A stretch of DNA of 64,000 bases from assembly GCA_045046875.1 (NCBI GenBank), contig JASFYY010000149.1:1-64000 (forward strand). The letters run 5' to 3'. How positions within the stretch are numbered: the stretch's first letter is position 1; each line of letters begins with the position of its first letter. The notes under the pieces were generated by a model that ran no database searches, was not told the DNA's origin, and saw nothing but the letters and a program-made list of their open reading frames with translations. The translations under genes and the position numbers were made by a program. Of this stretch, positions 30,542 through 55,631 are shown piece after piece. The stretch comes from Verrucomicrobiota bacterium (GTDB taxonomy: Bacteria; Verrucomicrobiota; Verrucomicrobiia; Verrucomicrobiales; DEV007).

Positions 30542-31030
30542 GTGAACGCCTCCCCTCCATCAATAGAAAAAATCACCGCATTGTTGCTGCAATTGCTTGA
30601 TCCCATCCGCCACAGTGCTGACACTCTTTTGCACTCTGAAATCGACAGCCGTGCCCTTGCCGATCCGATTTGGGAAAATTTTGTCGCATCCCTCAGTCAA
30701 ACTGAACTGCGTGAATTTAAATCCTGGCCCACTGTCGAATCCATACTATCCACCCTGCTTGACGACACCCTCTGGCCGGGCAACTCAACTGCTGAGCACG
30801 GCTCAACCACCCCTCCGCCAGCCACAGGTTCGCTTGCCGAATGGTTGGATCGCCTGCTTAAAATAATGCAGGCTATCGACCATCGCGCGCTACCCATCCT
30901 CGCCCTACGCCTCGAAGGCTTCGACCAACGGGACGTCTCCGAGCAACTGGAAACCGGGTTGCGCTGCATCCAGGCCATCACCCGGGAAATGCAACTGGCT
31001 TGGAGTGAACAAAAACTACCTGCCACCTGA
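30542..31030 (+). CDS. Degenerate ECF-sigma-like protein (region-4 HTH only)
   Basis: C-terminal ILALRLEGFDQRDVSEQLETGLRCIQ resembles region 4 of kinase-linked ECFs; no clear region 2; overlaps the kinase gene. Confidence 0.5.
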   Translation: MNASPPSIEKITALLLQLLDPIRHSADTLLHSEIDSRALADPIWENFVASLSQTELREFKSWPTVESILSTLLDDTLWPGNSTAEHGSTTPPPATGSLAEWLDRLLKIMQAIDHRALPILALRLEGFDQRDVSEQLETGLRCIQAITREMQLAWSEQKLPAT

Positions 31031-32372
31031 TTCCATGCTCGTCTCCATAGTCGCCAAATTTCAAGAAAAAGCACAACGGGATGCCGATCGTTACGAAGCA
31101 TGGACCGCCAGCCTGCTGCGTCTGCGTCAAGCTTTCGCAGAAGAACAAAATCCCAAAATTAAAGACCTGCGCGATTTCCTCGATTGCATTCCCGAAGAAC
31201 AACAGCTCGACACCTTGCAAGATCTCATCGCAGAACATTTGAGAATCACTTGGCAAAAGCAAAAAGGCGAACTCTTGGAAGCCTATTTTGCAGAATACGG
31301 CGAGGCATTCGAAGCACTGCGCGATTCAAGCCAGGTTCCTGTAGACCTAGTCGAAGATGAATTTCTCGCCCGCTACCAATCCCCCCATGGGGACACCCCT
31401 TCGATCAAAGAATATCAACAGCGTTTTCCGCAACGCAAAAACATCATCACCCGATTGCAGACGAGAGCCTTAGACCGCGGCCAATATATCAAATTGAAAA
31501 AAATCGGCCACGGTGCCATGGCAAACATCTGGAAAAGCTATGATTGCCGCAATAAAAAATTCATCGCCATTAAAGAGGCTGAAAACGATAATGCGCTTAA
31601 CAGCTTGGCTAAAGAGCATAGCGCCTGTGAGAAGCTCAACCATCAGGGCATCACCACCCTCCGCCCACTGCCACAGGAAAACAGCGCAGCTGCCCCCATT
31701 TATGGGATGGAATTAATTGACGGCCCCTCTCTCGCCCAAGCCATCGGCAAATACCACAGCCCTTCCGAGTATCTCAACAAAAATGCCCGACGCGAACTGT
31801 TGGAACAACTTCTTCACTCGCTCATCAACATCAGTGATGCCCTGAACCACGCCCACAATGAAGGCATTCTGCATCGTGACCTCAAACCGGGAAATGTTCT
31901 ACTTAACAAAGATGATCGTCCTTACATCATCGACTGGGGAATGACCATGTCTCTCAAACCCGAATCAGACTCTGCGTCTCCTAAAGATGTCATCATTGCG
32001 GGTACCCCGGAATACATGCCGCCAGAACAAAGTGTCGGTTCTGCCGATACCAGAAGCGACATTTTTTCGCTCGGGGCGATCCTCTACGAAATCCTCTGTG
32101 GCACCTCTCCCCATAACTGGGACCATCCGCTTCCACCGACGAATTGGGTGCAAATCGTCAAACAATGTCAGATCATAGCTCCGATAAAAGTCAATCGTAG
32201 CACTCCTGCCGCGCTCAATGCGATTTGTCTCAAGGCTCTCAATGCTGATCCGGATTTACGTTACCAAAGTGCTGGTGAGTTAGCTCGGGACATCGATCGT
32301 TATCTGAAAAAACAAACCGTTTCCGCTTACCCTGAAACTCTGTTCTACAAAATAAGACGCGGTCTGAGCTAG
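31005..32372 (+). CDS. Hanks-type Ser/Thr protein kinase, cytoplasmic
   Basis: IGHGAMA, IAIKE, HRDLKPGN, DWG, GTPEYMPPEQ, SDIFSLG, RYQSA; no TM segment. Confidence 0.92.
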   Translation: MNKNYLPPDSMLVSIVAKFQEKAQRDADRYEAWTASLLRLRQAFAEEQNPKIKDLRDFLDCIPEEQQLDTLQDLIAEHLRITWQKQKGELLEAYFAEYGEAFEALRDSSQVPVDLVEDEFLARYQSPHGDTPSIKEYQQRFPQRKNIITRLQTRALDRGQYIKLKKIGHGAMANIWKSYDCRNKKFIAIKEAENDNALNSLAKEHSACEKLNHQGITTLRPLPQENSAAAPIYGMELIDGPSLAQAIGKYHSPSEYLNKNARRELLEQLLHSLINISDALNHAHNEGILHRDLKPGNVLLNKDDRPYIIDWGMTMSLKPESDSASPKDVIIAGTPEYMPPEQSVGSADTRSDIFSLGAILYEILCGTSPHNWDHPLPPTNWVQIVKQCQIIAPIKVNRSTPAALNAICLKALNADPDLRYQSAGELARDIDRYLKKQTVSAYPETLFYKIRRGLS

Positions 32373-32742: not shown

Positions 32743-34800
32743 ATGAACAGTGCCGTATTAAAACCAAACCAGATAAAAACAGTCGCCCTGCCCTCTGCCA
32801 TCATCAAACGCAATGGGTCACAGGCTCGCTTTGATCCCGAGAAAATTTACCTGGCCATTGCCCAAGCGGGAGCCGCCACCGATGAATTTGCCCATGACGA
32901 AGCCCGACTGCTTTCTGGTCAAGTGATCAAGGTCCTGGGGCATCGTTTTAAAGACCTCTCTCCAAACATAGAACACATCCAAGACATCGTTGAGCAGGTT
33001 CTCATCACCGCCAATCACTTTCAAACTGCCCGTGCCTACATTGTCTATCGAGAGCAACACAAGACCCTGCGCCAAGACCATAAAACCGTCGTCGACGTAG
33101 CCAGCTCAGTGAACGAATACCTGGATCGCCTCGACTGGCGGGTAAACGCCAATGCTAATCAAGGCTATTCACTAGGAGGCATGATTTTAAATGTATCCGG
33201 GAAAGTGATTGCCAACTACTGGCTCAGCCATGTTTATCCTCCGGAAATCGGCTTGGCTCACCGCGAGGGAGACCTCCATATTCACGACCTCGACATGCTG
33301 GCCGGATACTGCGCCGGATGGTCATTGCGCACGCTGCTCAATGAGGGGCTCAATGGAGTTCCCGGCAAAGTTGAATCAGGCCCTCCCAAACACCTCAGCA
33401 GTGCGGTGGCACAAATCGTCAATTTCCTCGGCACTCTGCAAAATGAATGGGCAGGCGCCCAAGCCTTCAGCTCCTTTGACACTTATCTAGCCCCCTATAT
33501 CAGAAACGAATCACTCTCTTACACCCAGGTGAAGCAGAGCATGCAAGAGCTCATCTACAACCTCAATGTGCCTTCACGTTGGGGAACCCAGACTCCATTT
33601 ACCAACATCACCTTCGACTGGGTATGCCCGGAAGACCTTCGTAACGAGATCCCTGTCATCGGCGGAGAGGCTATGCCGTTCAACTATGGAGAACTGCAGA
33701 CGGAGATGGAAATGATCAACAAGGCTTACATAGAAGTCATGACAGCGGGAGACGCCAAAGGAAGGGTCTTCACCTTTCCTATCCCAACTTACAACATCAC
33801 TGAGGACTTCCCATGGGAGAGTGAAAATGCGCAACTGCTCTTTGACATGACGGCAAAGTACGGTCTGCCCTACTTCCAGAACTTCATCAACTCCGAGCTC
33901 AAGCCCAATATGATCCGCTCGATGTGTTGCCGTTTGCAATTGGATCTCACCGAATTACTCAAACGCGGCAACGGACTCTTCGGCTCCGCTGAGCAAACCG
34001 GCTCCCTGGGTGTGGTGACTATTTCCTGCGCTCGTCTGGGGCATGTTTATAAAGGGGATGAAAGCGGACTTTTTGAAAAATTGGACTACTTGATGGAGCT
34101 TGCAAAAAACAGTCTGGAAATCAAACGCAAGGAAATACAACGCCACATGGATGCTGGCCTTTTCCCCTACACCAAGCGCTACCTTGGCACCGTGCGAAAT
34201 CATTTTTCGACTATTGGCATCAACGGCGTGAATGAAATGATTCGCAACTTCACCGATGACGAGCATGACATCACCAGTGAGTGGGGGCACGCTTTTGCCT
34301 GCCGATTGCTTGACCATATCAGGGCTAACATGGTTACCTTTCAGGAGCAGACCGGCAACATGTATAACCTGGAGGCAACTCCCGCGGAAGGCACGACCTA
34401 CCGCTTTGCCAAGGAGGATAGGAAAAAATTTCCTGGAATTTTGCAAGCGGGAACAGACGACAATCCTTATTACACCAATTCCTCCCAGCTTCCCGTCGGG
34501 TTCACTGATGACCCCTTCGAAGCCTTGACGCGTCAAGATGAACTCCAGTGCAAATACACCGGAGGCACCGTTTTACATCTTTATATGAGCGAGCGTATAT
34601 CAAGTGCCGACGCATGCAGGAAACTGGTGCAGCGATCCCTGCAACGTTTCCGACTGCCCTACATCACAATAACTCCCACTTTTTCCATCTGCCCGAAACA
34701 CGGCTACCTATCAGGAGAGCATGCATATTGCCCCAAGTGCGATGAGCAAATTTTAACACAGAAAAGAAAAACATCTGAAACAGAATCCTCCTCTAAATAA
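32743..34800 (+). CDS. nrdD: Anaerobic (class III) ribonucleoside-triphosphate reductase, large part lacking the glycyl-radical loop
   Basis: ATP cone (IIKRNG), HIHDL, YCAGW, FTFPIPT, SMCCRL, EATPAEG, YTGGT, Zn motif CPKH...CPKC; ends with no RxxGY. Confidence 0.93.
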   Translation: MNSAVLKPNQIKTVALPSAIIKRNGSQARFDPEKIYLAIAQAGAATDEFAHDEARLLSGQVIKVLGHRFKDLSPNIEHIQDIVEQVLITANHFQTARAYIVYREQHKTLRQDHKTVVDVASSVNEYLDRLDWRVNANANQGYSLGGMILNVSGKVIANYWLSHVYPPEIGLAHREGDLHIHDLDMLAGYCAGWSLRTLLNEGLNGVPGKVESGPPKHLSSAVAQIVNFLGTLQNEWAGAQAFSSFDTYLAPYIRNESLSYTQVKQSMQELIYNLNVPSRWGTQTPFTNITFDWVCPEDLRNEIPVIGGEAMPFNYGELQTEMEMINKAYIEVMTAGDAKGRVFTFPIPTYNITEDFPWESENAQLLFDMTAKYGLPYFQNFINSELKPNMIRSMCCRLQLDLTELLKRGNGLFGSAEQTGSLGVVTISCARLGHVYKGDESGLFEKLDYLMELAKNSLEIKRKEIQRHMDAGLFPYTKRYLGTVRNHFSTIGINGVNEMIRNFTDDEHDITSEWGHAFACRLLDHIRANMVTFQEQTGNMYNLEATPAEGTTYRFAKEDRKKFPGILQAGTDDNPYYTNSSQLPVGFTDDPFEALTRQDELQCKYTGGTVLHLYMSERISSADACRKLVQRSLQRFRLPYITITPTFSICPKHGYLSGEHAYCPKCDEQILTQKRKTSETESSSK

Positions 34801-34818
34801 AAACAAACCATTAAAAAA

Positions 34819-34989
34819 ATGAAAACCACCGAAAAAATAGAACTCACTGAAGAAGAACGCCAACCCTGTGAAATTTGGACCCGGGTGATGGGATACCACC
34901 GCCCTGTTTCCGCGTTCAATAAAGGAAAAAAGGGAGAACATGCAGAAAGAGTCCATTTCAAGGAAGAAGCCAGCAAGGGGCATTGCTGA
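34819..34989 (+). CDS. Stand-alone NrdD glycyl-radical peptide, 56 aa (not in the ORF track)
   Basis: Hand translation MKTTEKIELTEEERQPCEIWTRVMGYHRPVSAFNKGKKGEHAERVHFKEEASKGHC*, containing RVMGY and FNKGKKGE. Confidence 0.9.
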   Translation: MKTTEKIELTEEERQPCEIWTRVMGYHRPVSAFNKGKKGEHAERVHFKEEASKGHC

Positions 34990-35026
34990 CCAGCCAAATC
35001 TCTAAGGGAAAGGTTAAGGGGAGGTT

Positions 35027-35701
35027 ATGTCCGTATTAAAAGTCGGAGGGCTCACCGCCCTGACTACGATTGATTTCCCCGGGCACCTGGCAGCTGTTGT
35101 GTTCTGCCAGGGATGCCCGTGGCGTTGCCCTTACTGTCATAACCCCCACTTACTTCCGGGCACCGGCAGTGAGGATTTGCAATGGGATCAGGTGCTCTCA
35201 TTCATGCAAGAGCGCAAAGGCTTGCTCGATGGGGTGGTGTTCAGCGGCGGAGAACCAACTTCACAATCCTGTTTACTCCAAGCCATTCAGGAAATCAAAC
35301 AGCTGGACTTCTCCGTAGGCCTGCACACAGCAGGCCCCTACCCTGACCGCTTGTCAGAATTGCTGCCCCATCTCGATTGGGTTGCACTTGATATCAAGGC
35401 TCCCTTTGACTCTTATGAAAAAATAACCGGGATACCCCATAGCGGCGAAAAAGCAAAACAAAGCGCTCTTCTGATACTGGAATCCGGATTGCCCTACGAG
35501 TTCCGCACCACGGTCCATCCCGGATTGATCGATGATATTTCCCTTTTCATTTTGGCCGAAAATCTAAAGCAAATGGGCGTTAAAAATTTTGCCCTGCAGA
35601 ACTTTCGCCCGACCACCACTCTACCCATTCCAGAAAACCCGCTTAGTCCCGACACCATCGAGACGATCAGCGCCATGTTTCCCCAATTCGAAGTCAGGTG
35701 A
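35027..35701 (+). CDS. nrdG: Class III RNR activating radical-SAM enzyme
   Basis: GCPWRCPYCHN (CxxxCxxC), SGGEPT; follows nrdD. Confidence 0.92.
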   Translation: MSVLKVGGLTALTTIDFPGHLAAVVFCQGCPWRCPYCHNPHLLPGTGSEDLQWDQVLSFMQERKGLLDGVVFSGGEPTSQSCLLQAIQEIKQLDFSVGLHTAGPYPDRLSELLPHLDWVALDIKAPFDSYEKITGIPHSGEKAKQSALLILESGLPYEFRTTVHPGLIDDISLFILAENLKQMGVKNFALQNFRPTTTLPIPENPLSPDTIETISAMFPQFEVR

Positions 35702-35850: not shown

Positions 35851-36210
35851 ATGAATCAGCTATCCCTTTATCAACGCCTTGGAGGCTATCAAGCAATTTC
35901 CAGGTTTGCCAATAACTTGCTTCCTCGTTTAATGAATGACTCTCAATTAGGAAGATTCTGGAAAAACCCTAATAGCCAAAGCCGAAAGAAAGGGCCCAAT
36001 GGACTGATTAGATACTTATGCTCTTGCGCAGGTTGGCCTGCTTATCTGCCAGGCCATTACAGGGATGATATTAAAATCACTGAACTCGATTGGTCAAAAT
36101 TCATGGTACACGCCGGAGCCACCATGGAAGCCCTGCAAGTGCCTGACCGGGAAGTAGAAGAAGTTATTTCTTTTGTGATCAGCATGAAGAGCAAAGTGGT
36201 TAAATACTAG
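35851..36210 (+). CDS. Group I truncated (2/2) globin-like protein, divergent
   Basis: SLYQRLGGY...LGRFW...YLCSCAGWP...ITELDW; the F-helix region is atypical. Confidence 0.7.
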   Translation: MNQLSLYQRLGGYQAISRFANNLLPRLMNDSQLGRFWKNPNSQSRKKGPNGLIRYLCSCAGWPAYLPGHYRDDIKITELDWSKFMVHAGATMEALQVPDREVEEVISFVISMKSKVVKY

Positions 36211-36267: not shown

Positions 36268-36948
36268 ATGAATATTGAAATACAAACACACGTTGCAGAA
36301 ATCGCTACCCTTTACCCATTGGCAACCCGGGTTCTAGATCGTTATCAAATCGGCTATTGTTGCGAAGGAGGCAAAACGCTTAATGAAGCATGTGAGCGCC
36401 GAGGGTTGAATCCCGAAGCCATCATAGCAGAAATCCAACAGGAGCTGGAGAAAACCGACGACTCACCCACCCGCTGGGATCAAGCATCTCTGGAGGAACT
36501 GATCAAACACATTCTGGCCACCTACCATGAACCCCTGCGTGAAGAACTTCCCCGACTGGAAGCCATGGCTCTCAGGGTAGAGCAAGTCCACGGCGAAAAA
36601 ATGCCTCTGGTGTTGCCCGAACTTGCCCGTGTCATGACAGCCCTCAGAGCAGAACTGGAACAACACATGATGAAAGAAGAACAGATCCTTTTTCCTTTGG
36701 TTCTACAAGGTGAAAAGATCATGATCGACTGTCCGATCAAAGTAATGGAACAAGAGCACGATAGCGCTAGCCACGCGCTGCAACGACTGCGGCTATTGAC
36801 CAATAACTACCAAGTGCCCGATGGCGCATGCAATACTTGGCGTGCCTTGTGGCATGGACTGGCAGACCTGGAGTCCGAGTTACAACACCACATCCACCTT
36901 GAGAACAATATTTTGTTTCCTCGCGCTTTAAAACCAGACGCGGCATAA
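36268..36948 (+). CDS. ric: Iron-sulfur cluster repair di-iron protein (Ric/YtfE/ScdA/DnrN)
   Basis: IGYCCEGG, YHEPLR, VHG, HMMKEEQILFP, MEQEHD, GACNTW, HIHLENNILFP. Confidence 0.95.
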   Translation: MNIEIQTHVAEIATLYPLATRVLDRYQIGYCCEGGKTLNEACERRGLNPEAIIAEIQQELEKTDDSPTRWDQASLEELIKHILATYHEPLREELPRLEAMALRVEQVHGEKMPLVLPELARVMTALRAELEQHMMKEEQILFPLVLQGEKIMIDCPIKVMEQEHDSASHALQRLRLLTNNYQVPDGACNTWRALWHGLADLESELQHHIHLENNILFPRALKPDAA

Positions 36949-38400: not shown

Positions 38401-38442
38401 ATCTGCCTCCTTCTATTAAATAATCAGTCCTTTGAAAAAAAA

Positions 38443-39954
38443 CTAGCCGAGTTGGTAATAAGGGGTGCTCATCATCAGGTGAAGCAATTCGGCCACCTCC
38501 CTATCAGTGAACCCCTCACTCCCCTTGGCTTTGGCATATTCCTCAAAAATCTCCTGCTGGAGCGGTTTGAGTTCATCCTGAAAAAGACGATTGCTTAGGT
38601 CTTTTACCAGTTCCAACGGATCCTGGCGCAGTTTTGCAGGAGCAATAGTTTTATAATCAGGCCCCTTCCATGAAGCTCCACCCTGTTTCCGCTTGCGCTT
38701 GGACTTTCCACGTCCACCACCCATCATCGGCGATTTCCCACCGCTCCCCTTGGTCACAAAGCCCGCCACATTGTACCGTGTCAGCAGGCTATTGGTATTG
38801 ATCCAGGCCTTTCCCCAATCCCAGCCAGCCACGTTAGGCGGCATCAGCAGTTGTTGACCCAACTGAATCTGTATCAGCCTCAAATAGCGTTCGGGAACGA
38901 CTTCCTCAATCTCGAGTTGGCGCAACATCTGGACGAGAAACTCCACCGGACTCTTGATCCGCGTCCGGATTGCCTGTGATGAATAAAACTCTTGCGAAAG
39001 GAATATTTTACGCAACAACGGTGCCACCTCGAAACCTCCTGCTAAAAAATCCGCTGCCAAAACATCCTTCATTTCCTGCGAAGGATTTTCGTAAGCGAAG
39101 TACTGCCAAAGTTTTGTTGGCACATAACCGGCGCAGGCCTCTTGTTCAAAAAGGATATTGATGATGTCCTTGCCCTCAAAGGCACCGGTCTGTCCCATGA
39201 AAGTTTTCTCACCTTCATCCCATGTTTTTTTGACATGCTTCACCTTGCCCGACCAGCGGTCGAGAGTGTAACCCGTAAAAGCTCTCGCCCCCTCCTTGAT
39301 ATCCTGTTCGCTGTAGTTCCCCTCCCCCAAAGTAAAAAGTTCCAGCAGCTCTCTGGCAAAGTTTTCATTGGGTTTGCCTTTTTTGGACTGTGGCGTATCG
39401 AGGTAGCGCATCATCGCAGGGTTAATCGCGATCCTTTGAGTCAGCTCTTTAAAATTTCCTGTCGCAAATTCCCGGAACAACGCATTTTGCTGATAGAGCA
39501 GCCGGGGATCCCGAACCTTCTGCAGACTGCTGGGAAAATGGTCGTGCCAGAAAAAAGTCATCTTCTCCTGTAAGGGCGCCTTGGTTTTTTGCATCCGGGT
39601 GAACCACCACTGCTGCAGCTCACCGCCCGCCGCCCGCATGGTCTTGCGCACCCGCTGGCGAAACTTCCTCTGCTTCTTCTCATACTCCTCGGCGCTCATT
39701 TCGCTGCGACTGTTGCGCAGCTGCTTCATTTGCTGACGAATTTCCTTACCTTTCCCATCGTCGTTCTCAAGTGTCCACTCCGGCGGTTCAAAAGCATCCA
39801 GACCCTCTGGAGGATTCAAAAGCAAGTCCACCGCCGGCTCCCGCCCCAGCGCATGAAATTCAACAAACTGCTTCGGCGAGCCACCGAAGCCGGCTCGATT
39901 CAGGAGATGCGCAGCCTCTCGCTGCGTCCATTCGTTTTGTGCGGGTAAAAGCAT
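38443..39954 (-). CDS. DUF1800 family protein
   Basis: AAHLLNRAGFG, FWHDHF, PNENFARELLELFTLG, PPNVAGW; usual partner of DUF1501. Confidence 0.9.
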   Translation of the reverse strand: MLLPAQNEWTQREAAHLLNRAGFGGSPKQFVEFHALGREPAVDLLLNPPEGLDAFEPPEWTLENDDGKGKEIRQQMKQLRNSRSEMSAEEYEKKQRKFRQRVRKTMRAAGGELQQWWFTRMQKTKAPLQEKMTFFWHDHFPSSLQKVRDPRLLYQQNALFREFATGNFKELTQRIAINPAMMRYLDTPQSKKGKPNENFARELLELFTLGEGNYSEQDIKEGARAFTGYTLDRWSGKVKHVKKTWDEGEKTFMGQTGAFEGKDIINILFEQEACAGYVPTKLWQYFAYENPSQEMKDVLAADFLAGGFEVAPLLRKIFLSQEFYSSQAIRTRIKSPVEFLVQMLRQLEIEEVVPERYLRLIQIQLGQQLLMPPNVAGWDWGKAWINTNSLLTRYNVAGFVTKGSGGKSPMMGGGRGKSKRKRKQGGASWKGPDYKTIAPAKLRQDPLELVKDLSNRLFQDELKPLQQEIFEEYAKAKGSEGFTDREVAELLHLMMSTPYYQLG

Positions 39955-42978: not shown

Positions 42979-44400
42979 TTAACTTATAGGTAAAAGGAAA
43001 TCGATCACGTCAGACGAAGTGTAAAGAGGGTCTTGCAAACTCGAAAGGCGCTGAATCCCCTCCAAATCATCTCCGCAAGTCACCAGCGGTAACTCCTGAT
43101 ACGCATCACTCCTAATTTGAGCCAGACCTATGTTGGCCATCAAGCCATTGCAAAGACATTTTTTTCCGACACTGTCCTCCAACTTGCCTCCACTTTTGAC
43201 ATAATGTTCCGGATTTTCCGCCCGGCACCTCCAACCAACACCTCCGTCCGGCAATTCGTAAGCTTCCCGCAAATAACCCAAATCGCACATCCTGTGACGC
43301 CTGGTATAATCCTCCTCCTCCGAAAGGGTATCTGGAATAGATATCACTTTAAAAGGGAAGCCCGTCGGAGAAGCGATTGGATCCGTCTTGATCTGCACCC
43401 GTCCCTGATGACAACTCTTGATCACATCACTTTTTATATCCGCACGCAAACCTGACTCCTCACAGAAAGCAAATATCGTTCCCACTTGGACTCCCGATGC
43501 ACCTGCATCAATAGCCTTTTGAAGTTCCTCCGGCTTGCCATAGGAACCCGCCAACCAAAACGGCAAGCCCAAGCGACGGATCTGCTCAAGATCCACTTCA
43601 TCCCGCCGTCCATATAGAGGTTCACCTTCCTCACTGAACACCGCTTTCCCCCGCGGCGGAGCATTGTGCCCGCCCGCACTTGGCCCTTCGATGATCAAAC
43701 CATCGACCTGACCTTTGCATTTTTTAACCATCACCATGGCCAGCGTCGCTGAAGCCACAATAGGTAAAAATAGCGGCTTTGGCATTACCTCACAAGCAGC
43801 TCCCATCACGTCAGCAGGATCAAAAGAGAGCTTGTGCCCTCCGCTTCCTTCCTCGCCTTGCACATACAAATCAAATTCAGCCGCTTCACCACGACAAAGA
43901 TTATCTATGATAGTGGGAATCTGCAATGGGATTCCAGCCCCCACAATCACCACATCCACCCCTGCTAAAATCGCTCCATAAAGAGAAGGCATGATCGGGG
44001 TCTGAATCTTATGCAAAAAATTAATACCTACCAAGCCATCATGCCCCTCCTTGGCTAAAAACACCTCCACAAAATTCGCCACCACGAGTAACTCCTGAAT
44101 AGAACGGCTAAGTTTATGTCCCACCATAGCCTTGTTCGCATAAGGCTCCGCATGCCCCTTTCCTCCCGGGATATAATATTTATCAAGGATAGATTGAGCC
44201 ATCTCAGAATCAGGAAACGCGGCAAGCCCCCGCCTCATATCGCCACCAGGATCTCCCTGCTGCAATCGCCTCACAAAAATGAGATCCAAGGCTGTTCCGC
44301 TCACCACCCCCAGCTGCTTGCATAAAGAAACCGCACGCGCCAGACGCCAATCTGATACGCCCAAGCCCATCCCTCCTTGTATTATTTTGGTAGAATTCAT
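42979..44400 (-). CDS. Nitronate monooxygenase / FabK-FabX-family FMN enzyme with a four-Cys C-terminal region
   Basis: IIQGGMG, GAGIP, EGPSAGGH (catalytic His), GVQVGT, SPTGFPF; Cys in CDLGYL, WRCRAE, CLCNG; GGGGAG upstream of ATG 44400. Confidence 0.85.
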   Translation of the reverse strand: MNSTKIIQGGMGLGVSDWRLARAVSLCKQLGVVSGTALDLIFVRRLQQGDPGGDMRRGLAAFPDSEMAQSILDKYYIPGGKGHAEPYANKAMVGHKLSRSIQELLVVANFVEVFLAKEGHDGLVGINFLHKIQTPIMPSLYGAILAGVDVVIVGAGIPLQIPTIIDNLCRGEAAEFDLYVQGEEGSGGHKLSFDPADVMGAACEVMPKPLFLPIVASATLAMVMVKKCKGQVDGLIIEGPSAGGHNAPPRGKAVFSEEGEPLYGRRDEVDLEQIRRLGLPFWLAGSYGKPEELQKAIDAGASGVQVGTIFAFCEESGLRADIKSDVIKSCHQGRVQIKTDPIASPTGFPFKVISIPDTLSEEEDYTRRHRMCDLGYLREAYELPDGGVGWRCRAENPEHYVKSGGKLEDSVGKKCLCNGLMANIGLAQIRSDAYQELPLVTCGDDLEGIQRLSSLQDPLYTSSDVIDFLLPIS

Positions 44401-44455
44401 AAGCACATTACTCCCCTTGTATCCGGAGAGCTAAATTTGTGAAACAAGTCTGCTT

Positions 44456-44812
44456 CTAATCAGAATTCTTGCCTAGCTTCGGCGAAGAGGCATACTCGTC
44501 CTGCATTGTCGAGTTGCCAAAAATACCCATAACAATGGACATCAATCCTTTTTTCACCGGCTTCGGAGGATTATCACACCATTCCCCTACCTCCACATCA
44601 CCCTTCATTTTAACCCATTTCATGTGAATCGCATCATCTTCGCAAACTACAGTGCAGTCGCCCACACCAAGACATGTGTCAGGTGCCACTAGCGTTGCAA
44701 AATCCCAAACAGGTTTCAGGCAGGCGTGAGGGCAAGCCTCTACACACTTGCCGCAGCCAGTGCAATAATCAGTGATCACCGGCACCCATTTGTGGCTTAG
44801 TTTTTTGCTCAT
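44456..44812 (-). CDS. Dicluster-type ferredoxin with C-terminal extension
   Basis: CTGCGKCVEACP and a second motif CLGVGDCTVVC. Confidence 0.85.
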   Translation of the reverse strand: MSKKLSHKWVPVITDYCTGCGKCVEACPHACLKPVWDFATLVAPDTCLGVGDCTVVCEDDAIHMKWVKMKGDVEVGEWCDNPPKPVKKGLMSIVMGIFGNSTMQDEYASSPKLGKNSD

Positions 44813-44869: not shown

Positions 44870-47359
44870 CTACTCTTCTTCCTCTTCCTCTTCTTCTTCC
44901 TCCTCCTCTTCTTCCTCGAGCCTACCTGCGGCCACTTCAAGCAAATCACTGGTTCCGGCAAAAGGATCCACATCACCCGCAAGGGCTAATACGGATTTTG
45001 GCACCACAAACTGCTCCTTCGGAGATTGGGTGACCCGTAGATCAAACCAACGACTGATCATGAACCAAATCAATGGCAACACCCCGCCCACAATAAAGAC
45101 GATCACTCCGACACTACGCATCCACGTGAACAGCTGGAAAGTATCTCCTTCAAGAAAGGCCTGCGAGCGCCCATAAGCATAACCTTTATCCATGATGGCT
45201 ATCAATTGATGGACTCCCACTGGGAACAAGTCCATCGCAACCATCAACGCGAGGCCTAAATTCAGAGACCAAAACGAAGTGCGCAACATTTTGTCATTCC
45301 ATCGCTCAGGATGCACATTCCATCTAGCGCAAAACAGCATGGCTGCGATGCCCAGGTTTCCATACACTCCGAACAAAGCGGCATGCGCATGGTTCACCGT
45401 CAGGTAGCTGCCATGCTGATAATAATTCACAATAGGCAAATTCACCGAAAAACCAAGCACCCCGGCACCGAAGAAGTTCCAGAAGTTCACCCCGACAAGG
45501 AACAAAAACGCCGTCCCCAGTCCGAAAGTTGCATTAACTCCCTTATCCTTCTTCAACTGAGCGAGTGCGCTCTGCGGCATATTACGGAACCTCCAAGCTG
45601 ATACCGTCAACAATACCAAGGGAGCCACTTGCAGGCTTGAAAGCACCCCACCCAAAGCAATCGTCTCAATCGACTTGGCGTTCCAATAGAAGTTATGCGC
45701 GATACCAATCAGACCTGAGCCGAGGAACAACAAACACGCCAAATACACCACTCGCGCCGCCATTCGATGACTGACAAAACCCATCAGATATAAGAAGTAG
45801 GCCACAATGATCGTGGTGAACACTTCGAAAAAAGCCTCCACCCACATGTGAATCGTGCACCACCTCCAGAAATCGGCGATCACAAAACTTGTATCCGTCG
45901 ATGCCACAAACGAAGCCGTGAACATGAAAATCATTCCTGCGATGGCATACACCATCCAGTTTGGTAATGACCAAGTCTGCTTTTGTTTCAAGGCAGGCCA
46001 CAACCCGCGCATGACGATCACTAACCACATAGCAAATGATACAAAAAGCAGATACTGATAAAAACGCCCGATCGTCATGAACTCCCACCCCTGGATGCCG
46101 AACCAACGGTTCATTTCTCCTTCAAAAACCCTGGCGATTCCAAGTGGAATACCAATCGCTCCACCAACCCCTACCACCAACAACACCCAGAACAGGGCAT
46201 TCACCCATTTGAGTTGACCCGTAGGCTCAGGGCGGCAGATCAGAGGCAATACCCAGATGGTGGCAGCAAACCAACACACCGCAATCCACAACACCGATAT
46301 TTGCTCATGCCAGGCCCGTGTCACCGTGACCGGCAGCAAATGATTGATCTGCAGTCCCATTTTATCAAAAATGTGAACAAAATCCATCACCGTCAACAAA
46401 CCTGCCAACACCTGAATCCCAAACAATATACAAGCCACGGCAAAATACTTATAAGTCGCCCTTTGTGTGGGAGTTGGTTTAAATTTGTCCAGAAAGTCAC
46501 TGGTAGCCAAAGGGGGCATCTTGCCCTTCTCCTGCTCAAACTCCGCATCCGGATCCAATTTGCCGTAGTAGTAAAAAATGGTTCCGATAAACCAGATCAC
46601 AATGATCACCCCAATAATGCTCCATAGCACCAAGCCTCCATGCGGCAAATTTCCCGCCAGAGGATCATAAGGCCAGTTTTGGGTATAACTGTATTCATAC
46701 CCTGGTCGCGCAGCACCACACAACCAACCGCCCCAATAGAAAAAAGCGGTCAATTCTCTAATATCCTGTTCATCGGTGATATAATTCGGAGGATTAAAGG
46801 TCTCTTGCCCCACCAGATCCCCGCCGCGTCCAAACATCTGGGTGTAATAAGTTAACATCTTTTTGGCTGCATAAACCTGCCCGTCCGTCATCACAATAGC
46901 ACCAGGCTCAAACTTACTCTGCTCGTCCCCCTGTTTGGTGTAGTAGTCCGCCACATAGGTGTTTTTCTTGATCTCCTTCTGCACCAAAGCACGAACAATA
47001 GTTTCTCTCACCTCGGCATCCGGTTCCCTCGCCTGCCAATCCCTTTCATAATATTCATTCATCCACTTGGCGGTATTGTTAAGCGCCTCCCCAGTGAAAT
47101 CCGGCCCTCTCATTCCTCCATCTCCCAGGTAACTGCCATAATCCATCAAGCCCCTACTGAGGAAAACCTTCTGACCCTCTTGAATCTCTTCAGCTGTAAA
47201 TATAATAGCACCTTTACTGTCTACAAAATTAGACCTGGGCGGCGCATACTCGTATGTCTTATAGCCGATGTAACCGACAACGCAGATACTGACCGCAAAA
47301 ATAATAACGAATATTTTCCACCAGTTTTTACGTTGATCGATTATTTTTAGAATGTTCAT
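44870..47359 (-). CDS. qNor-family heme-copper oxidoreductase with NO-dismutase (Nod)-like substitutions
   Basis: qNor architecture (heme-less N-terminal domain, YTQNWPYDP, RAWH, IHMWVEAFFE, NHAHAALFGVYG), but GIAHNFYW instead of HH, SSLQV instead of SALEV, and no quinol-site His/Asp. Confidence 0.85.
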   Translation of the reverse strand: MNILKIIDQRKNWWKIFVIIFAVSICVVGYIGYKTYEYAPPRSNFVDSKGAIIFTAEEIQEGQKVFLSRGLMDYGSYLGDGGMRGPDFTGEALNNTAKWMNEYYERDWQAREPDAEVRETIVRALVQKEIKKNTYVADYYTKQGDEQSKFEPGAIVMTDGQVYAAKKMLTYYTQMFGRGGDLVGQETFNPPNYITDEQDIRELTAFFYWGGWLCGAARPGYEYSYTQNWPYDPLAGNLPHGGLVLWSIIGVIIVIWFIGTIFYYYGKLDPDAEFEQEKGKMPPLATSDFLDKFKPTPTQRATYKYFAVACILFGIQVLAGLLTVMDFVHIFDKMGLQINHLLPVTVTRAWHEQISVLWIAVCWFAATIWVLPLICRPEPTGQLKWVNALFWVLLVVGVGGAIGIPLGIARVFEGEMNRWFGIQGWEFMTIGRFYQYLLFVSFAMWLVIVMRGLWPALKQKQTWSLPNWMVYAIAGMIFMFTASFVASTDTSFVIADFWRWCTIHMWVEAFFEVFTTIIVAYFLYLMGFVSHRMAARVVYLACLLFLGSGLIGIAHNFYWNAKSIETIALGGVLSSLQVAPLVLLTVSAWRFRNMPQSALAQLKKDKGVNATFGLGTAFLFLVGVNFWNFFGAGVLGFSVNLPIVNYYQHGSYLTVNHAHAALFGVYGNLGIAAMLFCARWNVHPERWNDKMLRTSFWSLNLGLALMVAMDLFPVGVHQLIAIMDKGYAYGRSQAFLEGDTFQLFTWMRSVGVIVFIVGGVLPLIWFMISRWFDLRVTQSPKEQFVVPKSVLALAGDVDPFAGTSDLLEVAAGRLEEEEEEEEEEEEEEE

Positions 47360-49530: not shown

Positions 49531-49902
49531 TTAATCTTTTGATTTTTTTATTTCAGTTCTCTCAAAACCGTAACCAATGTCATTCGTTTCATCTATTCCT
49601 GAATCAAGCAAACACTCGTAAAACCATTCTTGCTGGCTTTTAGATAATTTTAAATCCCCCCCTAGAACACTTTCCACGAAATCCAGTGACACTTCTGAAA
49701 TCTCATCATTCTCCAACCCCATTTCCACAGAGACATACAGCTTTATGTCTCGATGCGAAAACCTGAGCTTTGCATTATTGTAATACCAATCATTACTGTC
49801 AGATGAATGAAAACAACCGCAATCGTGCAGCCTCTTATCAGCTTCATTATTCGAGTCATAATATGACTGGAGTAAATCCAAGGCTTCCTTAGGCGTTATC
49901 AC
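49531..49902 (-). CDS. Hypothetical acidic protein (accessory array)
   Basis: 123-aa ORF; 4-bp overlap with the upstream ORF. Confidence 0.6.
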   Translation of the reverse strand: MITPKEALDLLQSYYDSNNEADKRLHDCGCFHSSDSNDWYYNNAKLRFSHRDIKLYVSVEMGLENDEISEVSLDFVESVLGGDLKLSKSQQEWFYECLLDSGIDETNDIGYGFERTEIKKSKD

Positions 49903-50483
49903 TTTGGTTTACCCTCCCCAGTCGCCCGCCGATCGCATTCAACATGCCGCACGATGTACTGAATCAAATCATCGATGACAAACATCTCTTCAGCTTCCTC
50001 TGATTTTATCGGCTCTAGTCCAAACTCTTCCTCAACCGCCATAACAACTTCTACAGGCTCAAGATCTGTCATATCCAAATCCTCCATGAATCTAGTCCGA
50101 GGCTCACACACCGCCACAGAAGCTCCAACCTGTTCGCTTAGTATTTCAATAAATTTAGCGGCTACCCCCTTCTCTCTGTCCACTTTCTCGCCATAATACT
50201 TTTCAGCCCATTCCAAAGCTTCTTGTATTTTTTTATTTGAGTTTTGCTCAAGCCGCCACGGAATATAAATACTCAATCCCGCAAAAATAAAAGCTGCCGC
50301 CACCTGAACGAACACAACTTCTCCCCCCGTCAGCCTAACCCCGGAAATGCTTCCAAACAATGAAGAGCCCTCGCTAACTTCAGACATTATGTATTCATGC
50401 CCTGCGTCCATAAATAGATAAAGTGATGCGAGCAATCCCATCACACTGGCTAATTTATACTTTGTAAGAAAAGCTATTTTCAT
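49899..50483 (-). CDS. Membrane protein with a C-terminal acyl-carrier-protein-like domain lacking the Ppant Ser
   Basis: Two hydrophobic segments, then FMEDLDMTDLEPVEVVMAVEEEFG...IDDLIQYI. Confidence 0.65.
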   Translation of the reverse strand: MKIAFLTKYKLASVMGLLASLYLFMDAGHEYIMSEVSEGSSLFGSISGVRLTGGEVVFVQVAAAFIFAGLSIYIPWRLEQNSNKKIQEALEWAEKYYGEKVDREKGVAAKFIEILSEQVGASVAVCEPRTRFMEDLDMTDLEPVEVVMAVEEEFGLEPIKSEEAEEMFVIDDLIQYIVRHVECDRRATGEGKPK

Positions 50484-50505
50484 TAAACGTTTATAGCTAT
50501 CACTC

Positions 50506-51255
50506 TTAGCTAGAACCCTTCTTCGGAGTCAATCCTGACAATATAGATTCACCATGCATCAGGAAATAATTAACTGTTCGCCAGACCCCTTCACCTAGTT
50601 CTTCAGTTGAAATACCATCCTTACACCAAAAAGCTTGCCCATTATGCAAGCCCAGCCAATTCTGCATAGAAAAGTCGTTATCGAACAAAGTCTCATCATC
50701 TTTCCAATAAATTGAATGCTCATACTCGCAATTATAGTAACGCTGGTCCGTAGTAATGGAAGTGACAACCTCCCATCCTCTGAAGTCCTGAGTAATCATC
50801 AACCAGCTCCGTTCTCGATGTCTTACATGAAGCCCGGATTCCTTTGATTTGGTTTCAATATAATCTAGCAACCCCTGCCTATCTGTCCGAATCGTTGTGT
50901 AAGGAGGCGAAGGCAAAGCTTTGAACAACAAACCATTAATTCCCTTCAACATCTGCCTTTCTTCGTCTGTAATACCTATTTTTTTTCGCCCATTCCACCC
51001 TTACTGGATTTTTTTGCCCCACTGGCACACGCGGAAACAGATCAATGATGGGCACTATATAATTTTTGCGATTATCTCTGCTAATTACCGTTGCTCATCT
51101 TTGCTGTGATTTTGAAAGTATGAAATAACAGTCTCAGTAAAACTGCTTTGACAATGCTTCAAATCTTCAAAATCAGATTCGATCAATTCGCTAAAATGCT
51201 CCTTACCAAAGACAAAAAGCCTCTCTTCAAATTTTGCTATTGCAACGTGATCCAT
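50506..51255 (-). pseudogene. Interrupted hypothetical gene
   Basis: ATG at 51255 (MDHVAIAKFEERLF...) is in frame with ORF 50506-50952, but three stops (TAA, TAG, TAA) lie between them. Confidence 0.5.
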
Positions 51256-51360
51256 ACCCACCGCTTATTTTAGTCCAATCACCCAGCGAGATGCAACGAA
51301 TTTTTTCCTCATAAAAGTGCCCTTCATAAAAATGAAACTCGGGCTTTATAATTGCAGATA

Positions 51361-51780
51361 TCAATTTTGGGCTTTTTCCCAAGGTTGATCAATCATTTTA
51401 ATCACACCACCGCATTCATATTTTGGCATCTCTGAAAACACTCTCAAAGCACCCTCAGCCCCTTCGGTTTCTTTCCCATAAAAAAATAACACGGCTCCAT
51501 TGAAGCCCAATTGTTTTTGACCTTCATCGTTCAACTCGAGCAAAACCTCTGACTCTTTAATTTCGATTTTATCAGCACCTCGGTACCCACCCAGGGATTG
51601 ATCAGATCGTTCCAGATAAATCCCTTCCATACCATAGCTCCGGTCTTGATCATCCGTTTTTTTATCGCAGACAATATGCAACACATCGCAAGACTCCAAT
51701 TCCGAGGCGAAGCCAAGAGTCACCCAAAGGCAGTCCTCATCACTACCTGACATCAATTCCTTGAGTTCGCGAACTTCCAT
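51361..51780 (-). CDS. Imm10-like putative polymorphic-toxin immunity protein
   Basis: TLGFA...DDQDRSYGMEGIYLERSDQSLGGYRG..KIEI resembles the Imm10 pattern as recalled; not searched. Confidence 0.5.
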   Translation of the reverse strand: MEVRELKELMSGSDEDCLWVTLGFASELESCDVLHIVCDKKTDDQDRSYGMEGIYLERSDQSLGGYRGADKIEIKESEVLLELNDEGQKQLGFNGAVLFFYGKETEGAEGALRVFSEMPKYECGGVIKMIDQPWEKAQN

Positions 51781-51782
51781 TT

Positions 51783-52610
51783 TTATCTGCCGGTTTTTCC
51801 GAGTAAACCCTTGCCAAATCTTTCCCCTACCCAATTAGGCAAGTCCTCCGTGACATATGGATCCCCTAAAAGCCAATGCAAATACGCATCACAATCCAGA
51901 GCAAGCCCGTCTGTATTCCTAAGGATCAGCTCACGATTGTTTTTAAAAAACTCATCCAAATCATCAATAATAGATTTTAACGTTTCTTCATCCCCCCCCA
52001 GATCTTCATCATGATAACTCATGACTCGTAGCGTCAATGCAGATATGATTTCCCGTCGTTTACTGGACAAAATATCATCTCGCAGCACAAATTCCTTCAA
52101 CACGGGGATGCTGGCCTCCTCAGCAAGCCAAGCGTCATCGTCCTGGCCGATGAACGATACTTTCTCATCGTATCCCCACAACTCCATTAATTCCAGAGTT
52201 GGGATAGAACCGAGCAACTTTACATTCATCATTCTAGGTATGACATACTGAAGGAGAATGAATGGAATAGCAAAGGCCGCGATTGGAATGATCGCAGGGA
52301 GAATCGAATCTATCCTTCTAGCTACGATAAAGAAAGCCATCACCCCAATGAGTCCTGCCACGGCTCCAGTGAAAATCAAATACCACTCCCATTGAGGAGA
52401 TCTTTTCAGTAGCTTGTCAATTCCTCCGGTTTCTTCTTTTGTCGGCAACAAGGCGTGGAGAAACACTTCATTTCCCAATAGGAAAATTGCCACAATACCA
52501 AAACCCATCATGGCAAGGTCTTCGATAAATCCTACTTTTGGAACTAATACCACCAACAATGCTGATGACAAAAGCGCCACTGCCACATAACTGATAATAT
52601 AACGCCACAT
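51783..52610 (-). CDS. Hypothetical protein, 4 TM plus acidic helical C-terminal domain
   Basis: Hydrophobic first half, acidic second half; ends 2 bp before the next ORF. Confidence 0.65.
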   Translation of the reverse strand: MWRYIISYVAVALLSSALLVVLVPKVGFIEDLAMMGFGIVAIFLLGNEVFLHALLPTKEETGGIDKLLKRSPQWEWYLIFTGAVAGLIGVMAFFIVARRIDSILPAIIPIAAFAIPFILLQYVIPRMMNVKLLGSIPTLELMELWGYDEKVSFIGQDDDAWLAEEASIPVLKEFVLRDDILSSKRREIISALTLRVMSYHDEDLGGDEETLKSIIDDLDEFFKNNRELILRNTDGLALDCDAYLHWLLGDPYVTEDLPNWVGERFGKGLLGKTGR

Positions 52611-53067
52611 CGATCAAAAATTGGATCCGAATAAATCTATAATCACAGTGACAGGAGATCAATAAAATCTCGCTCAATCCCAGTTATTAAAAATGATGTC
52701 TCCTACCGTTTTTGGCTGTCAGTATTCCAACTCACCCTTCTCCGACTCTTCAAGCTCCTCTAATAATTCATCTGTGCCTTTCTATAATCCAACCAAAGCA
52801 GTTCACAATTCATCGTGTGTATCACAAATTTTCGTATCTTCCCCGTCTGCCCCCCTGATTTGAGAAAGCTTTCATACGCTTCTTCCAATCGCCGGAGCCT
52901 ACCCGAATCAACGCCTAATCCCACTTCTTACTGACCTCCTGTAGCTGAAAATACAACCCACCTGTCAGCCTTGGGGGAAGTTCTGCAAAGCTCGTCAATT
53001 ATGCCATTTACAAGCAAATCACATGCGTCGAGTGCTTTGCTGATAGATTTCTGGTGGCGCTTGCTAG

Positions 53068-53487
53068 TCATCCTGATGATTCAATCCTTACAGTTCCGCC
53101 GTCGGGTGTCGTAAATGTGTAATAGCGACCGTATAAACCATCCTCCGCCTTATACTGCCCGATTTTCTCTGCAATGCCCCTCAGTTTTTTCTCCGGGTAA
53201 CCTCCCGCTATCAAGAGAGATAAATAGGGAGCGGACTCCAACTCCGTATTCTCCTCTAGATTAACAATCAACTCGGGAAATCTTAAGGTGGCGCCACGCT
53301 GATTGCTAAATAACGGGCAAAATTGATCATGTTTTGAATCTTTCACCTCAACAGCAATTTGCTCAAAAAACTCCACCATCGCATCGAATTTTGGTGTGGC
53401 GATGGCTATGCAAACAGAAGTCCCGGTAAGGTCATCCAAATTAACATATTTTAACTTTTTTCTAAACGGCCGCATTGCAAATTTCAT
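53068..53487 (-). CDS. VOC/glyoxalase-fold-like protein
   Basis: IAIATPKFDAMVEFF...YGRYYTFTTPDGGTVRIE pattern. Confidence 0.55.
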   Translation of the reverse strand: MKFAMRPFRKKLKYVNLDDLTGTSVCIAIATPKFDAMVEFFEQIAVEVKDSKHDQFCPLFSNQRGATLRFPELIVNLEENTELESAPYLSLLIAGGYPEKKLRGIAEKIGQYKAEDGLYGRYYTFTTPDGGTVRIESSG

Positions 53488-53655
53488 TATGTCTGATCGT
53501 CACCGCAGGTGTTAAGATCGTTATTCCCCCTAATAGTAAGCGACTATTCTTGTAAACGGCTGATAAAAACCGTTCTCCGGAAGTTCGATACCAATTCCAT
53601 CCGTGATTTTCTGAAATCAGGATGCTTATCGAATCTGTTTTGAGTGAATTCCATT

Positions 53656-54069
53656 TCAGCTTCTTTTTTCTCCGAATTCATAATCAGCCCAATACCTCTC
53701 ATCATCAGGTGGAATGGAGATTTGCTCTTCTCCAGTGTATTCACGAAACTGCCATTGGCATTGATCACATTTTGACAACATGAAGAAAAAATCACCATCA
53801 ATAGAATCACAACACGCCTGTTCTGCCCGCAAATTTTTCGTCCCGCAATGGGGACAAAGACCTCGACAAAAAAATGTCGCATAGCTCGCCATAAGACCGA
53901 GGAAAGTCATTACAAGGATAATCTGCCCGAAATATGAAACCACTAATCCAAGAATAAGCACAGTGCCCCAGTCTAATTCGGTGGAAGTTTTCAATGAATA
54001 AATGACAAGCCAAAAGATCCCAATAGACGGACCCAGTATTATGATAAGCGATTTTGCTGCTGGTTTCAT
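53656..54069 (-). CDS. Hypothetical 2-TM protein with a C-terminal zinc ribbon
   Basis: Two hydrophobic helices, then CPHC...CDQC. Confidence 0.6.
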   Translation of the reverse strand: MKPAAKSLIIILGPSIGIFWLVIYSLKTSTELDWGTVLILGLVVSYFGQIILVMTFLGLMASYATFFCRGLCPHCGTKNLRAEQACCDSIDGDFFFMLSKCDQCQWQFREYTGEEQISIPPDDERYWADYEFGEKRS

Positions 54070-54079
54070 AGCACAATTT

Positions 54080-54979: not shown

Positions 54980-55016
54980 AGGCCAGAGTCAACATCAGAG
55001 AAAAAAACGCCATACC

Positions 55017-55577: not shown

Positions 55578-55631
55578 AATTCCGTGTCAGTTTGATCGAT
55601 CATCACAGCCGCTGTCCAAATGCTTGTTTTG

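What the first reader, a model, noticed from the sequence alone, without database searches (positions are those of the whole stretch)
44870..47359. Putative nitric oxide dismutase (Nod-like) in a probable Verrucomicrobiota genome
Seen: a full-length qNor scaffold with heme ligands intact (RAWH, NHAH) and HMWVE. The FeB His-His pair is His-Asn (GIAHNFYW, codons at 45692-45697). The conserved Glu of SALEV is Gln (SSLQV, 45629-45631). The quinol-site His (usually AHY) and Asp (usually R..GD) are absent (LTVMDF, WMRSVGV). Known: this combination is the signature reported for putative Nod of Methylomirabilis (NC10) and strain HdN1, and for related uncharacterised Nor-like proteins; to my knowledge dismutase activity has not been shown for a purified enzyme. 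Inference: potential light-independent O2 production in a heterotroph-looking PVC organism. The VEAFFE and YWNAK variants may place it in the Nod-related sister group rather than with NC10 Nod. No nitrite reductase is in this window.
Basis: partly seen in the sequence, partly recalled or inferred. Interest (0 to 1): 0.9.

Follow-up and report, generated by a model that had tools for sequence, protein, structure and literature searches.

The report
Putative NO dismutase with linked ferredoxin
This gene belongs to an already described family of membrane enzymes proposed, but never shown with purified protein, to split nitric oxide into nitrogen and oxygen; here it is the bacterium's only recognisable way to dispose of the nitric oxide it makes.

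Summary
Every residue call is correct. The 829-aa minus-strand gene has a qNor fold with His560→Asn, Glu581→Gln and no quinol site, and its 120 best-scoring homologues share these changes. Trees place it firmly in the Nod clade, in the 'Planctomycetia/Scalindua-type' branch, sister to Bacteroidota Nods and only 41% identical to HdN1 Nod. It is not new: Ruff et al. 2024 already list NOD in three Verrucomicrobiales species, and this scan met the family before in other genomes. Added here: the genome (94.7% complete) has nirK and a NapA-like gene, while nosZ, nirS, any other Nor, Hmp, Hcp and flavodiiron were not found, so Nod is its sole recognised NO sink. A specific 2[4Fe-4S] ferredoxin follows nod in this genus and in 9 of 19 same-branch loci. 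Chemistry is unproven: N2+O2 dismutation about 45%, NO reductase with a non-quinol donor about 35% (congeners pair Nod with NosZ; neighbours are NO-stress genes), N2O+O2 dismutation about 10%. New member of a known kind; a useful test case.

The parts
44870..47359 (-). Nod-family (qNor-derived) membrane enzyme, 829 aa, Planctomycetia/Scalindua-type branch
45692..45697 (-). His555-Asn556: the FeB His-His pair changed to His-Asn
45629..45631 (-). Gln577 in place of the conserved Glu (qNor Glu581)
46385..46387 (-). Met325 in place of the quinol-binding His328
45104..45106 (-). Val752 in place of the quinol-binding Asp746
47108..47122 (-). Altered Ca2+-site loop D80-G-G-M83-R84; the Ca ligand Tyr (AxqNOR Tyr78) is replaced by Met83, and Asp80 and Arg84 are invariant in Nod rows
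44873..44917 (-). C-terminal run of 15 Glu; an acidic tail was seen in 3 of the 29 tails printed and in the congeners' copies
44456..44812 (-). Nod-linked small 2[4Fe-4S] ferredoxin (118 aa, no signal peptide evident), 57 bases after the nod stop
42979..44406 (-). Nitronate-monooxygenase/FabK-like flavoprotein, third gene of the probable operon (also after the ferredoxin in G005 and G001)
36268..36948 (+). Iron-sulfur cluster repair di-iron protein (RIC/YtfE), an NO-stress gene 8 kb from nod
   Evidence: TIGR03652 242.8 bits, over cut-off
35851..36210 (+). Probable truncated globin; no Pfam hit itself, but 38-41% identical to Bac_globin proteins beside nod in two other loci
32743..35701 (+). 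Anaerobic (class III) ribonucleotide reductase nrdD and activase nrdG
30542..32372 (+). ECF-sigma-like gene plus Ser/Thr kinase pair, which recurs next to nod in this branch

Best explanation
It is an intact Nod-family enzyme that removes the NO made by this bacterium's own copper nitrite reductase when oxygen runs low. Shown: the fold, heme b and b3 ligands, two of three non-heme-metal histidines, the His→Asn and Glu→Gln changes, loss of the quinol site, no CxxCH, Nod-clade membership, and nirK in a genome with no other recognised NO sink. Inferred, most likely chemistry: two NO bind at the altered heme b3/metal centre and are dismutated without outside electrons to N2 and O2, as proposed for Methylomirabilis. 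The O2 would be scavenged at once by the cbb3 or A-type oxidase. The main benefit would be NO disposal with some respiration, not supply of a methane or alkane oxygenase. The linked ferredoxin may prime or re-reduce the hemes, or repair NO damage (speculative).
For: Same diagnostic changes as the proposed NODs. One clade with HdN1 Nod, 100/100 support on a long branch (FastTree 0.989). 19 positions are at least 95% conserved in 57 Nod rows and in at most 10% of 26 qNor rows (position 556 is circular, being the grouping criterion), which suggests one shared chemistry. The quinol His is absent in 54 of 57 Nod rows (His remains at that column in 3 of 7 Bacteroidota-type rows) and the quinol Asp is absent in all that cover the site. 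Genome: nirK with Cu-ligand motifs; nosZ, nirS and eNOR-like not found by HMM or tblastn; the nos site of the close congener G005 holds 5.7 kb of unrelated genes inside a continuous contig; only one Nor-like protein among 4 COX1 matches; Hcp, flavodiiron and Hmp-type globin found in 0 of 5 genomes while controls rang; cbb3 and A-type oxidases present. Labelled O2 and N2O bypass were reported for M. oxyfera enrichments (PMC3413370).
Against: No Nod has been purified (PMC13386854). The physiological evidence concerns the other subclade (HdN1 Nod is 41% identical; Ruff et al. note biochemical differences may separate the subclades). Congeners G003 and G005 have NapA-like + NirK + Nod + NosZ (TAT-type in G003) with no other Nor found, so Nod fills the Nor slot of an N2O-producing chain. 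In the Allomuricauda genus sample 5 of 5 Nod carriers have nosZ (24 of 36 non-carriers; Fisher p 0.30, not significant) and in 3 of 5 it lies about 17-20 kb from nod. Fuchsman et al. argue such genes make N2O in an oxygen-deficient zone (PMC5723336). Neighbours are NO-stress and anoxia genes, including an O2-sensitive glycyl-radical reductase (sensitivity from established knowledge). No Rieske ring-hydroxylating oxygenase was found.
Confidence: 0.45

Rival explanations
1. It is an NO reductase (2 NO + 2 e- + 2 H+ → N2O + H2O) that swapped quinol for another donor, for example the co-encoded ferredoxin or a cytochrome. It serves as the Nor step of partial denitrification and as an NO-detoxifying enzyme.
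For: Nod sits in the Nor slot beside NosZ in two congeners, and nod lies near nosZ in 3 of 5 Allomuricauda-genus carriers. A ferredoxin subfamily tracks nod: 5 of 41 relatives, all in the nod-bearing genus; 9 of 19 same-branch loci; only weak generic hits (58 bits or less, against 128 for the window's own, which is in the model) in 400 phylum genomes without Nod. Glu508, Glu512 and Glu426 are kept. Rrf2 regulators occur in 37 of 92 Nod loci; RIC, globin, NnrS and Crp genes lie nearby. PMC5723336.
Against: The ferredoxin is missing from 10 of 19 same-branch loci, from 57 of 57 other VEAFFE-type loci and from 5 of 5 other Nod genomes tested, so it cannot be the general donor. It looks cytoplasmic, while heme b lies toward the outer face (established knowledge). 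One FeB His and one catalytic Glu are lost. cNor lies within 5 kb of Nod in 2 of the 57 loci, hinting at non-redundant roles. M. oxyfera makes little N2O despite abundant Nod.
Confidence: 0.35
2. It is an electron-neutral dismutase that yields N2O rather than N2 (4 NO → 2 N2O + O2), the stoichiometry reported for ammonia-oxidising archaea, whose enzyme is unknown.
For: This would reconcile the lost electron-entry site with co-occurrence and linkage of nosZ. The reaction is reported in whole cells (PMC11549561, PMC13464753).
Against: Those organisms carry no nod gene. For M. oxyfera N2O is reported to be bypassed. No direct evidence.
Confidence: 0.1
3. It is an ordinary, degenerate or misassembled qNor.
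For: Best structural match is qNor 3AYF (TM 0.84), and public sources often name relatives 'nitric oxide reductase subunit B'.
Against: The substitutions are invariant in 121 of 121 close rows. The protein lies outside every canonical qNor on the trees. The 9 qNors found in 400 phylum genomes keep His-His, Glu and the quinol His and Asp, and are only 33-36% identical. Intact copies occur in congeners.
Confidence: 0.02

Closest known systems
'Planctomycetia-type Nod' (OTU I of Fuchsman et al. 2017; Elbon et al., bioRxiv 10.1101/2023.11.21.568154), including Scalindua
   Same: Groups with proteins labelled Scalindua (71%), Planctomycetes and Verrucomicrobiales at 100/100 support. About 41-43% identical to HdN1/Alpha-type Nods, in line with the ~40% reported.
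   Different: Elbon et al. saw no recognisable neighbours for this type; here a specific ferredoxin and an ECF-like/kinase pair recur. The published OTU I sequences themselves were not in my trees.
NOD of Verrucomicrobiales listed in Ruff et al. 2024 (PMC11549561 Suppl. Table 1: family DEV007, two species; family V1-33, one species)
   Same: Same order by homologue labels and same family of enzyme.
   Different: A table entry only in what I saw; no genome context given. Whether this genome is among or near those three was not determined.
Putative NO dismutases of Ca. Methylomirabilis oxyfera (DAMO_2434/2437) and gammaproteobacterium HdN1 (Ettwig et al. 2012, PMC3413370)
   Same: His560→Asn, Glu581→Gln, lost quinol site, heme ligands kept; one clade with HdN1.
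   Different: Sister subclade (VEAFFE/YWNAK against VEVTFE/YWIAK; 41% to HdN1). Single copy, NirK as NO source, no methane or alkane lifestyle evident. No M. oxyfera sequence was in my trees; its place with HdN1 is taken from the papers.
Bacteroidota (Muricauda-type, 'unknown Nor-related') Nod
   Same: Same VEAFFE and YWNAK motifs; sister branch, 99/98 support.
   Different: 45-49% identical; usually beside Rrf2 regulators and without this ferredoxin.
Quinol-dependent NO reductase qNor (3AYF, 6QQ5, 8BGW)
   Same: Fold (TM 0.84), heme-less cytochrome-c-like domain, heme ligands.
   Different: One FeB His, one catalytic Glu, the quinol site and the Ca-ligand Tyr are all replaced.

Membership tests
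Putative NO dismutase (Nod/NOD) | qNor architecture with heme-less N-terminal cytochrome-c-like domain | tested here: met
   PF22085 + PF00115; model pLDDT 79.3, pTM 0.83; best fold match 3AYF, TM 0.84; no CxxCH in the sequence
Putative NO dismutase (Nod/NOD) | Heme b and b3 histidines and two of three non-heme-metal histidines kept | tested here: met
   H351, H657, H659, H504, H555
Putative NO dismutase (Nod/NOD) | Third metal His replaced by Asn | tested here: met
   Asn556, AAC at 45692-45694; criterion
Putative NO dismutase (Nod/NOD) | Active-site Glu replaced by Gln | tested here: met
   Gln577 against qNor Glu581
Putative NO dismutase (Nod/NOD) | Quinol-binding site lost (His328, Glu332, Phe336, Asp746) | tested here: met
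   M325, H329, K333, V752; residue list
Putative NO dismutase (Nod/NOD) | Branches in the Nod clade, apart from canonical qNor | tested here: met
   FastTree 0.989 on 85 rows; IQ-TREE 100/100 on 34 rows
Putative NO dismutase (Nod/NOD) | Hit to the published NOD HMM of Murali et al. | not testable with these tools
   That HMM is not among the libraries; NCBIfam has no family for the protein
Putative NO dismutase (Nod/NOD) | Catalyses 2 NO → N2 + O2 | not testable with these tools
   Not shown for any purified member (PMC13386854)
HdN1/NC10-type Nod subclade | Groups with HdN1 Nod; VEVTFE and YWIAK motifs | tested here: not met
   VEAFFE/YWNAK, 41% to HdN1, sister branch
Planctomycetia/Scalindua-type Nod subclade | Groups with Scalindua and Planctomycetota Nods; about 40% to Alpha/Gamma types | tested here: met
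   100/100 branch with source-labelled Scalindua and Planctomycetes proteins; published reference sequences not included
Canonical qNor | Six conserved histidines, Glu581 and quinol site | tested here: not met

The most novel reading that the evidence does not exclude
A sulfatase-rich Verrucomicrobiales heterotroph runs nitrate → nitrite → NO → N2 + O2 with no N2O step and respires its self-made oxygen. In this branch the working unit is Nod plus a dedicated 2[4Fe-4S] ferredoxin that primes or rescues the hemes, a partner that attempts to reconstitute Nod would need.
Probability: 0.12. Interest if true: 0.85.

Novelty: new member of a known kind. Interest (0 to 1): 0.4.

Why it matters
Whether Nod enzymes really make O2 in the dark has been open since 2010-2012. 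It bears on 'dark oxygen' and on N2O budgets, because a dismutase skips the greenhouse gas and a reductase makes it. This gene does not widen the known range of the family. Its context does sharpen the test: a genome with NirK, Nod as the only recognised NO sink and no NosZ predicts either N2 or N2O from labelled nitrite, and congeners with NosZ form a natural comparison. The linked ferredoxin is a concrete candidate to co-express.

Tried and rejected
Complex prediction of Nod (residues 8-786) with the ferredoxin (4-100) and two 4Fe-4S clusters gave no answer (scores 0.03 and 0.01, mark 0.32); it is not evidence either way. No RNA holder was listed for the locus, so expression is untested. The first metagenome scan returned no relatives, probably because the poly-Glu pattern filled the candidate list; a scan with an alignment worked. 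A regex count of ferredoxins near nod (1 of 23) undercounted and was replaced by tblastn and an HMM. Promoter, terminator and FNR-box scans were at chance level (the FNR motif is recalled). pMMO/AMO and soluble di-iron monooxygenase searches found nothing in 6 genomes, but their controls were silent, so absence is not shown. NrfA was not found, only weak multiheme hits. The NapA-like protein is under the NapA cut-off (359 against 904 bits) and is called NapA-like only. Enrichment of nosZ in Allomuricauda-genus Nod carriers is not significant, and only 1 of those 5 has nirK (nirS not searched). Base composition gave no clear sign of recent transfer (gene GC 48% against contig 50%). No Methylomirabilis-labelled protein turned up. 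Paper searches for a purified Nod or a tested isolate listed none by title or abstract. Rejected: canonical qNor, sequencing error, pseudogene.

Full report
Observation. The finding's coordinates hold one uninterrupted minus-strand ORF, 47359→44870, of 829 aa. Pfam gives the NorB cytochrome-c-like domain and COX1. The best solved relative is G. stearothermophilus qNor (3AYF, E 1e-135), and an AlphaFold model (pLDDT 79.3, pTM 0.83) matches it best (TM 0.84). All motif and codon calls are right. Counting along the alignment, His560 is Asn556, Glu581 is Gln577, and the quinol-site residues His328, Glu332, Phe336 and Asp746 are Met325, His329, Lys333 and Val752. The heme ligands, two metal histidines, Glu508, Glu512 and Glu426 are kept. 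Asn556 and Gln577 occur in 121 of 121 rows, the query plus the 120 listed best of 1513 hits, so they are a family trait.

Placement. I aligned 87 chosen sequences and built a FastTree on 85, dropping two aberrant representatives, then an IQ-TREE on 34 of them. All His-Asn proteins form one clade (0.989; 100/100), apart from every canonical qNor. It splits into an HdN1-type branch (VEVTFE, YWIAK; contains the protein labelled gammaproteobacterium HdN1, 41% identical to the query) and a VEAFFE/YWNAK branch (99/98). The latter holds Bacteroidota-type proteins (45-49%) and a mostly PVC branch (100/100), where the query sits with proteins labelled Verrucomicrobiales (91%, 77%), Scalindua (71%) and Planctomycetes. 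No Methylomirabilis sequence was available; that it goes with HdN1 is taken from PMC3413370 and Elbon et al. The diagnostic columns were left in the trees (about 750 columns). Nineteen positions separate 57 Nod rows from 26 qNor rows, among them Asp80 and Arg84 in the Ca2+ loop, where the Ca-ligand Tyr (Tyr78 of AxqNOR, PMC10256718) is lost in all 56 Nod rows that cover it. I did not search for whether that change is in print.

Distribution. Full or partial copies occur in 3 of 5 congeners, contig-end fragments in a fourth, and none in a 73%-complete fifth; no Nod-level match was found in the other 35 relatives. In 400 genomes drawn from the phylum none had Nod and 9 had canonical qNor. The gene is therefore patchy, and its closeness to Scalindua and Planctomycetes proteins suggests transfer within PVC bacteria (inference; direction not tested).

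Genome context (G000, 94.7% complete, 0.19% contaminated). Present: nirK over cut-off, with Cu-ligand motifs and a fused cytochrome c; a TAT-type NapA-like molybdoenzyme, under the cut-off; an A-type oxidase, a cbb3 oxidase and a ccoN-like protein; 6 P450 and 5 desaturase-family matches; about 42 ORFs with a sulfatase motif (rough count). Not found: nirS, nosZ, any second Nor or eNOR-like protein, Hcp, flavodiiron protein, Hmp-type globin, Rieske ring-hydroxylating oxygenase. The nos cluster of the close congener G005 lies at a site that in G000 is a continuous contig carrying 5.7 kb of unrelated ORFs, so nosZ is truly absent there; an unassembled copy elsewhere cannot be excluded. Against a simple N2-forming reading, nosZ is present in 3 of 4 congeners tested (the G003 copy is TAT-dependent). 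G003 and G005 combine it with NirK and Nod, and no other Nor appears among their COX1 matches (some matches were assigned by score and frame length, 8 by motif).

Neighbourhood. nod is followed after 57 bases by a 118-aa 2[4Fe-4S] ferredoxin and then a nitronate-monooxygenase-like gene. The ferredoxin belongs to a distinct subfamily. It was found in 5 of 41 relatives, exactly those with nod or its fragments. Of 80 metagenome loci, 23 are 62-72% identical to the query. Four of these have under 100 bases downstream and were dropped; 9 of the remaining 19 (two are duplicates) carry this ferredoxin, its core starting within 130 bases of the nod stop in 8. It was absent from 57 of 57 more distant loci and from 5 of 5 other Nod genomes. 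An ECF-sigma-like gene plus Ser/Thr kinase recurs in 6 of the 23 loci and in G003. Within 14 kb of nod the window also has ric, a probable truncated globin and nrdDG; nrdD lies near nod in 11 of the 57 other loci, and Rrf2-type regulators in 37 of 92 loci. This is an NO-stress and low-oxygen island, not an oxygenase operon.

Mechanism. The best-supported role is disposal of NirK-derived NO. For the chemistry I put N2 + O2 dismutation at 0.45: the enzyme has no evident electron entry, and its active site matches the proteins implicated in M. oxyfera. NO reduction with a non-quinol donor is at 0.35, given Nod in the Nor slot beside NosZ, nod about 17-20 kb from nosZ in 3 of 5 Allomuricauda-genus carriers, the ferredoxin, and Fuchsman et al.. 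Dismutation to N2O + O2 is at 0.10 and the remainder covers other chemistry. Sequence cannot decide among them.

What is known. Ettwig et al. 2012 (PMC3413370; parts 2-3 of 5 read) defined the signature and called the function speculation. Ruff et al. 2024 (PMC11549561; passages, section 6 and supplement rows) report NOD in 16 phyla and four subclades, and list three Verrucomicrobiales species and many Planctomycetota including Scalindua. Elbon et al. (bioRxiv 10.1101/2023.11.21.568154; passages; supplements closed and may hold more on neighbourhoods) name the Planctomycetia-type, note ferredoxins beside Gamma-type nod and suggest NO detoxification. PMC11828985 (passages) notes a 4Fe-4S dicluster gene by UBA1135 nod and a nos cluster by Cecembia nod. 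PMC13386854 (abstract, passages, references) states in 2026 that NOD has not been isolated. PMC11214002, PMC10286720, PMC5723336, PMC10256718 and PMC13464753 were seen as passages. One search on nod plus ferredoxin (15 of 132 papers listed) showed no paper devoted to this ferredoxin subfamily; that is weak evidence of absence. Earlier notes of this scan describe the same family in other genomes.

Verdict. Observation confirmed; new member of a known, functionally unresolved family; interest 0.4. The value lies in a clean genomic test case and a candidate partner, not in the discovery of the gene type.

Noticed in passing
G001:C97, C132, C86, C26 (L024, L184, L185): Congener G001 has nod residues 1-40 at two contig ends and the ferredoxin's C-terminal half at two other contig ends, which suggests two near-identical nod-ferredoxin copies that broke the assembly.
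   Followed up: partly
G001:C19 (L068:1381-3120, L094): A heme-copper protein with GHNSQQ at the active site, resembling eNOR (motif recalled), next to a nirS cluster in a congener; not found in G000.
   Followed up: partly
G004:C224 (L067:1177-2889): A ccoN-like protein with a YMHQGVGM motif in the congener where nosZ was not found; possibly the putative 'N2O red' family of Murali et al. (recalled, untested).
   Followed up: no
L001:3594-7751: A Deltaproteobacteria MAG carries an HdN1-type nod and a PVC-type nod in tandem, preceded by two small ferredoxins of another kind.
   Followed up: partly
L091, L093, L095: The nos cluster sits at different chromosomal sites in G003, G005 and G001, so it behaves as a mobile cassette in this genus.
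   Followed up: partly
window 37102-39954: A DUF1501/DUF1800 gene pair near nod; one or both genes also lie within 5 kb of nod in 8 of 23 same-branch loci. The genome has five such pairs, so the link may be weak.
   Followed up: partly
window 30542-32372: ECF-sigma-like gene with no Pfam hit, overlapping a Ser/Thr kinase with an unusual N-terminal domain; a possible regulator of nod in this branch.
   Followed up: partly
window residues 785-796 of the Nod protein (about 44972-45007): A conserved C-terminal FVVP/YVVP segment in 94 of 121 proteins of this branch, function unknown.
   Followed up: no
window 49531-56915: A low-GC (42-45%) run of small unannotated minus-strand ORFs downstream of the ceramidase-like gene.
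   Followed up: no
L099:3203-3370 against many G000 contigs: A repeat of about 170 bases is dispersed over more than 40 contigs of the genome.
   Followed up: no
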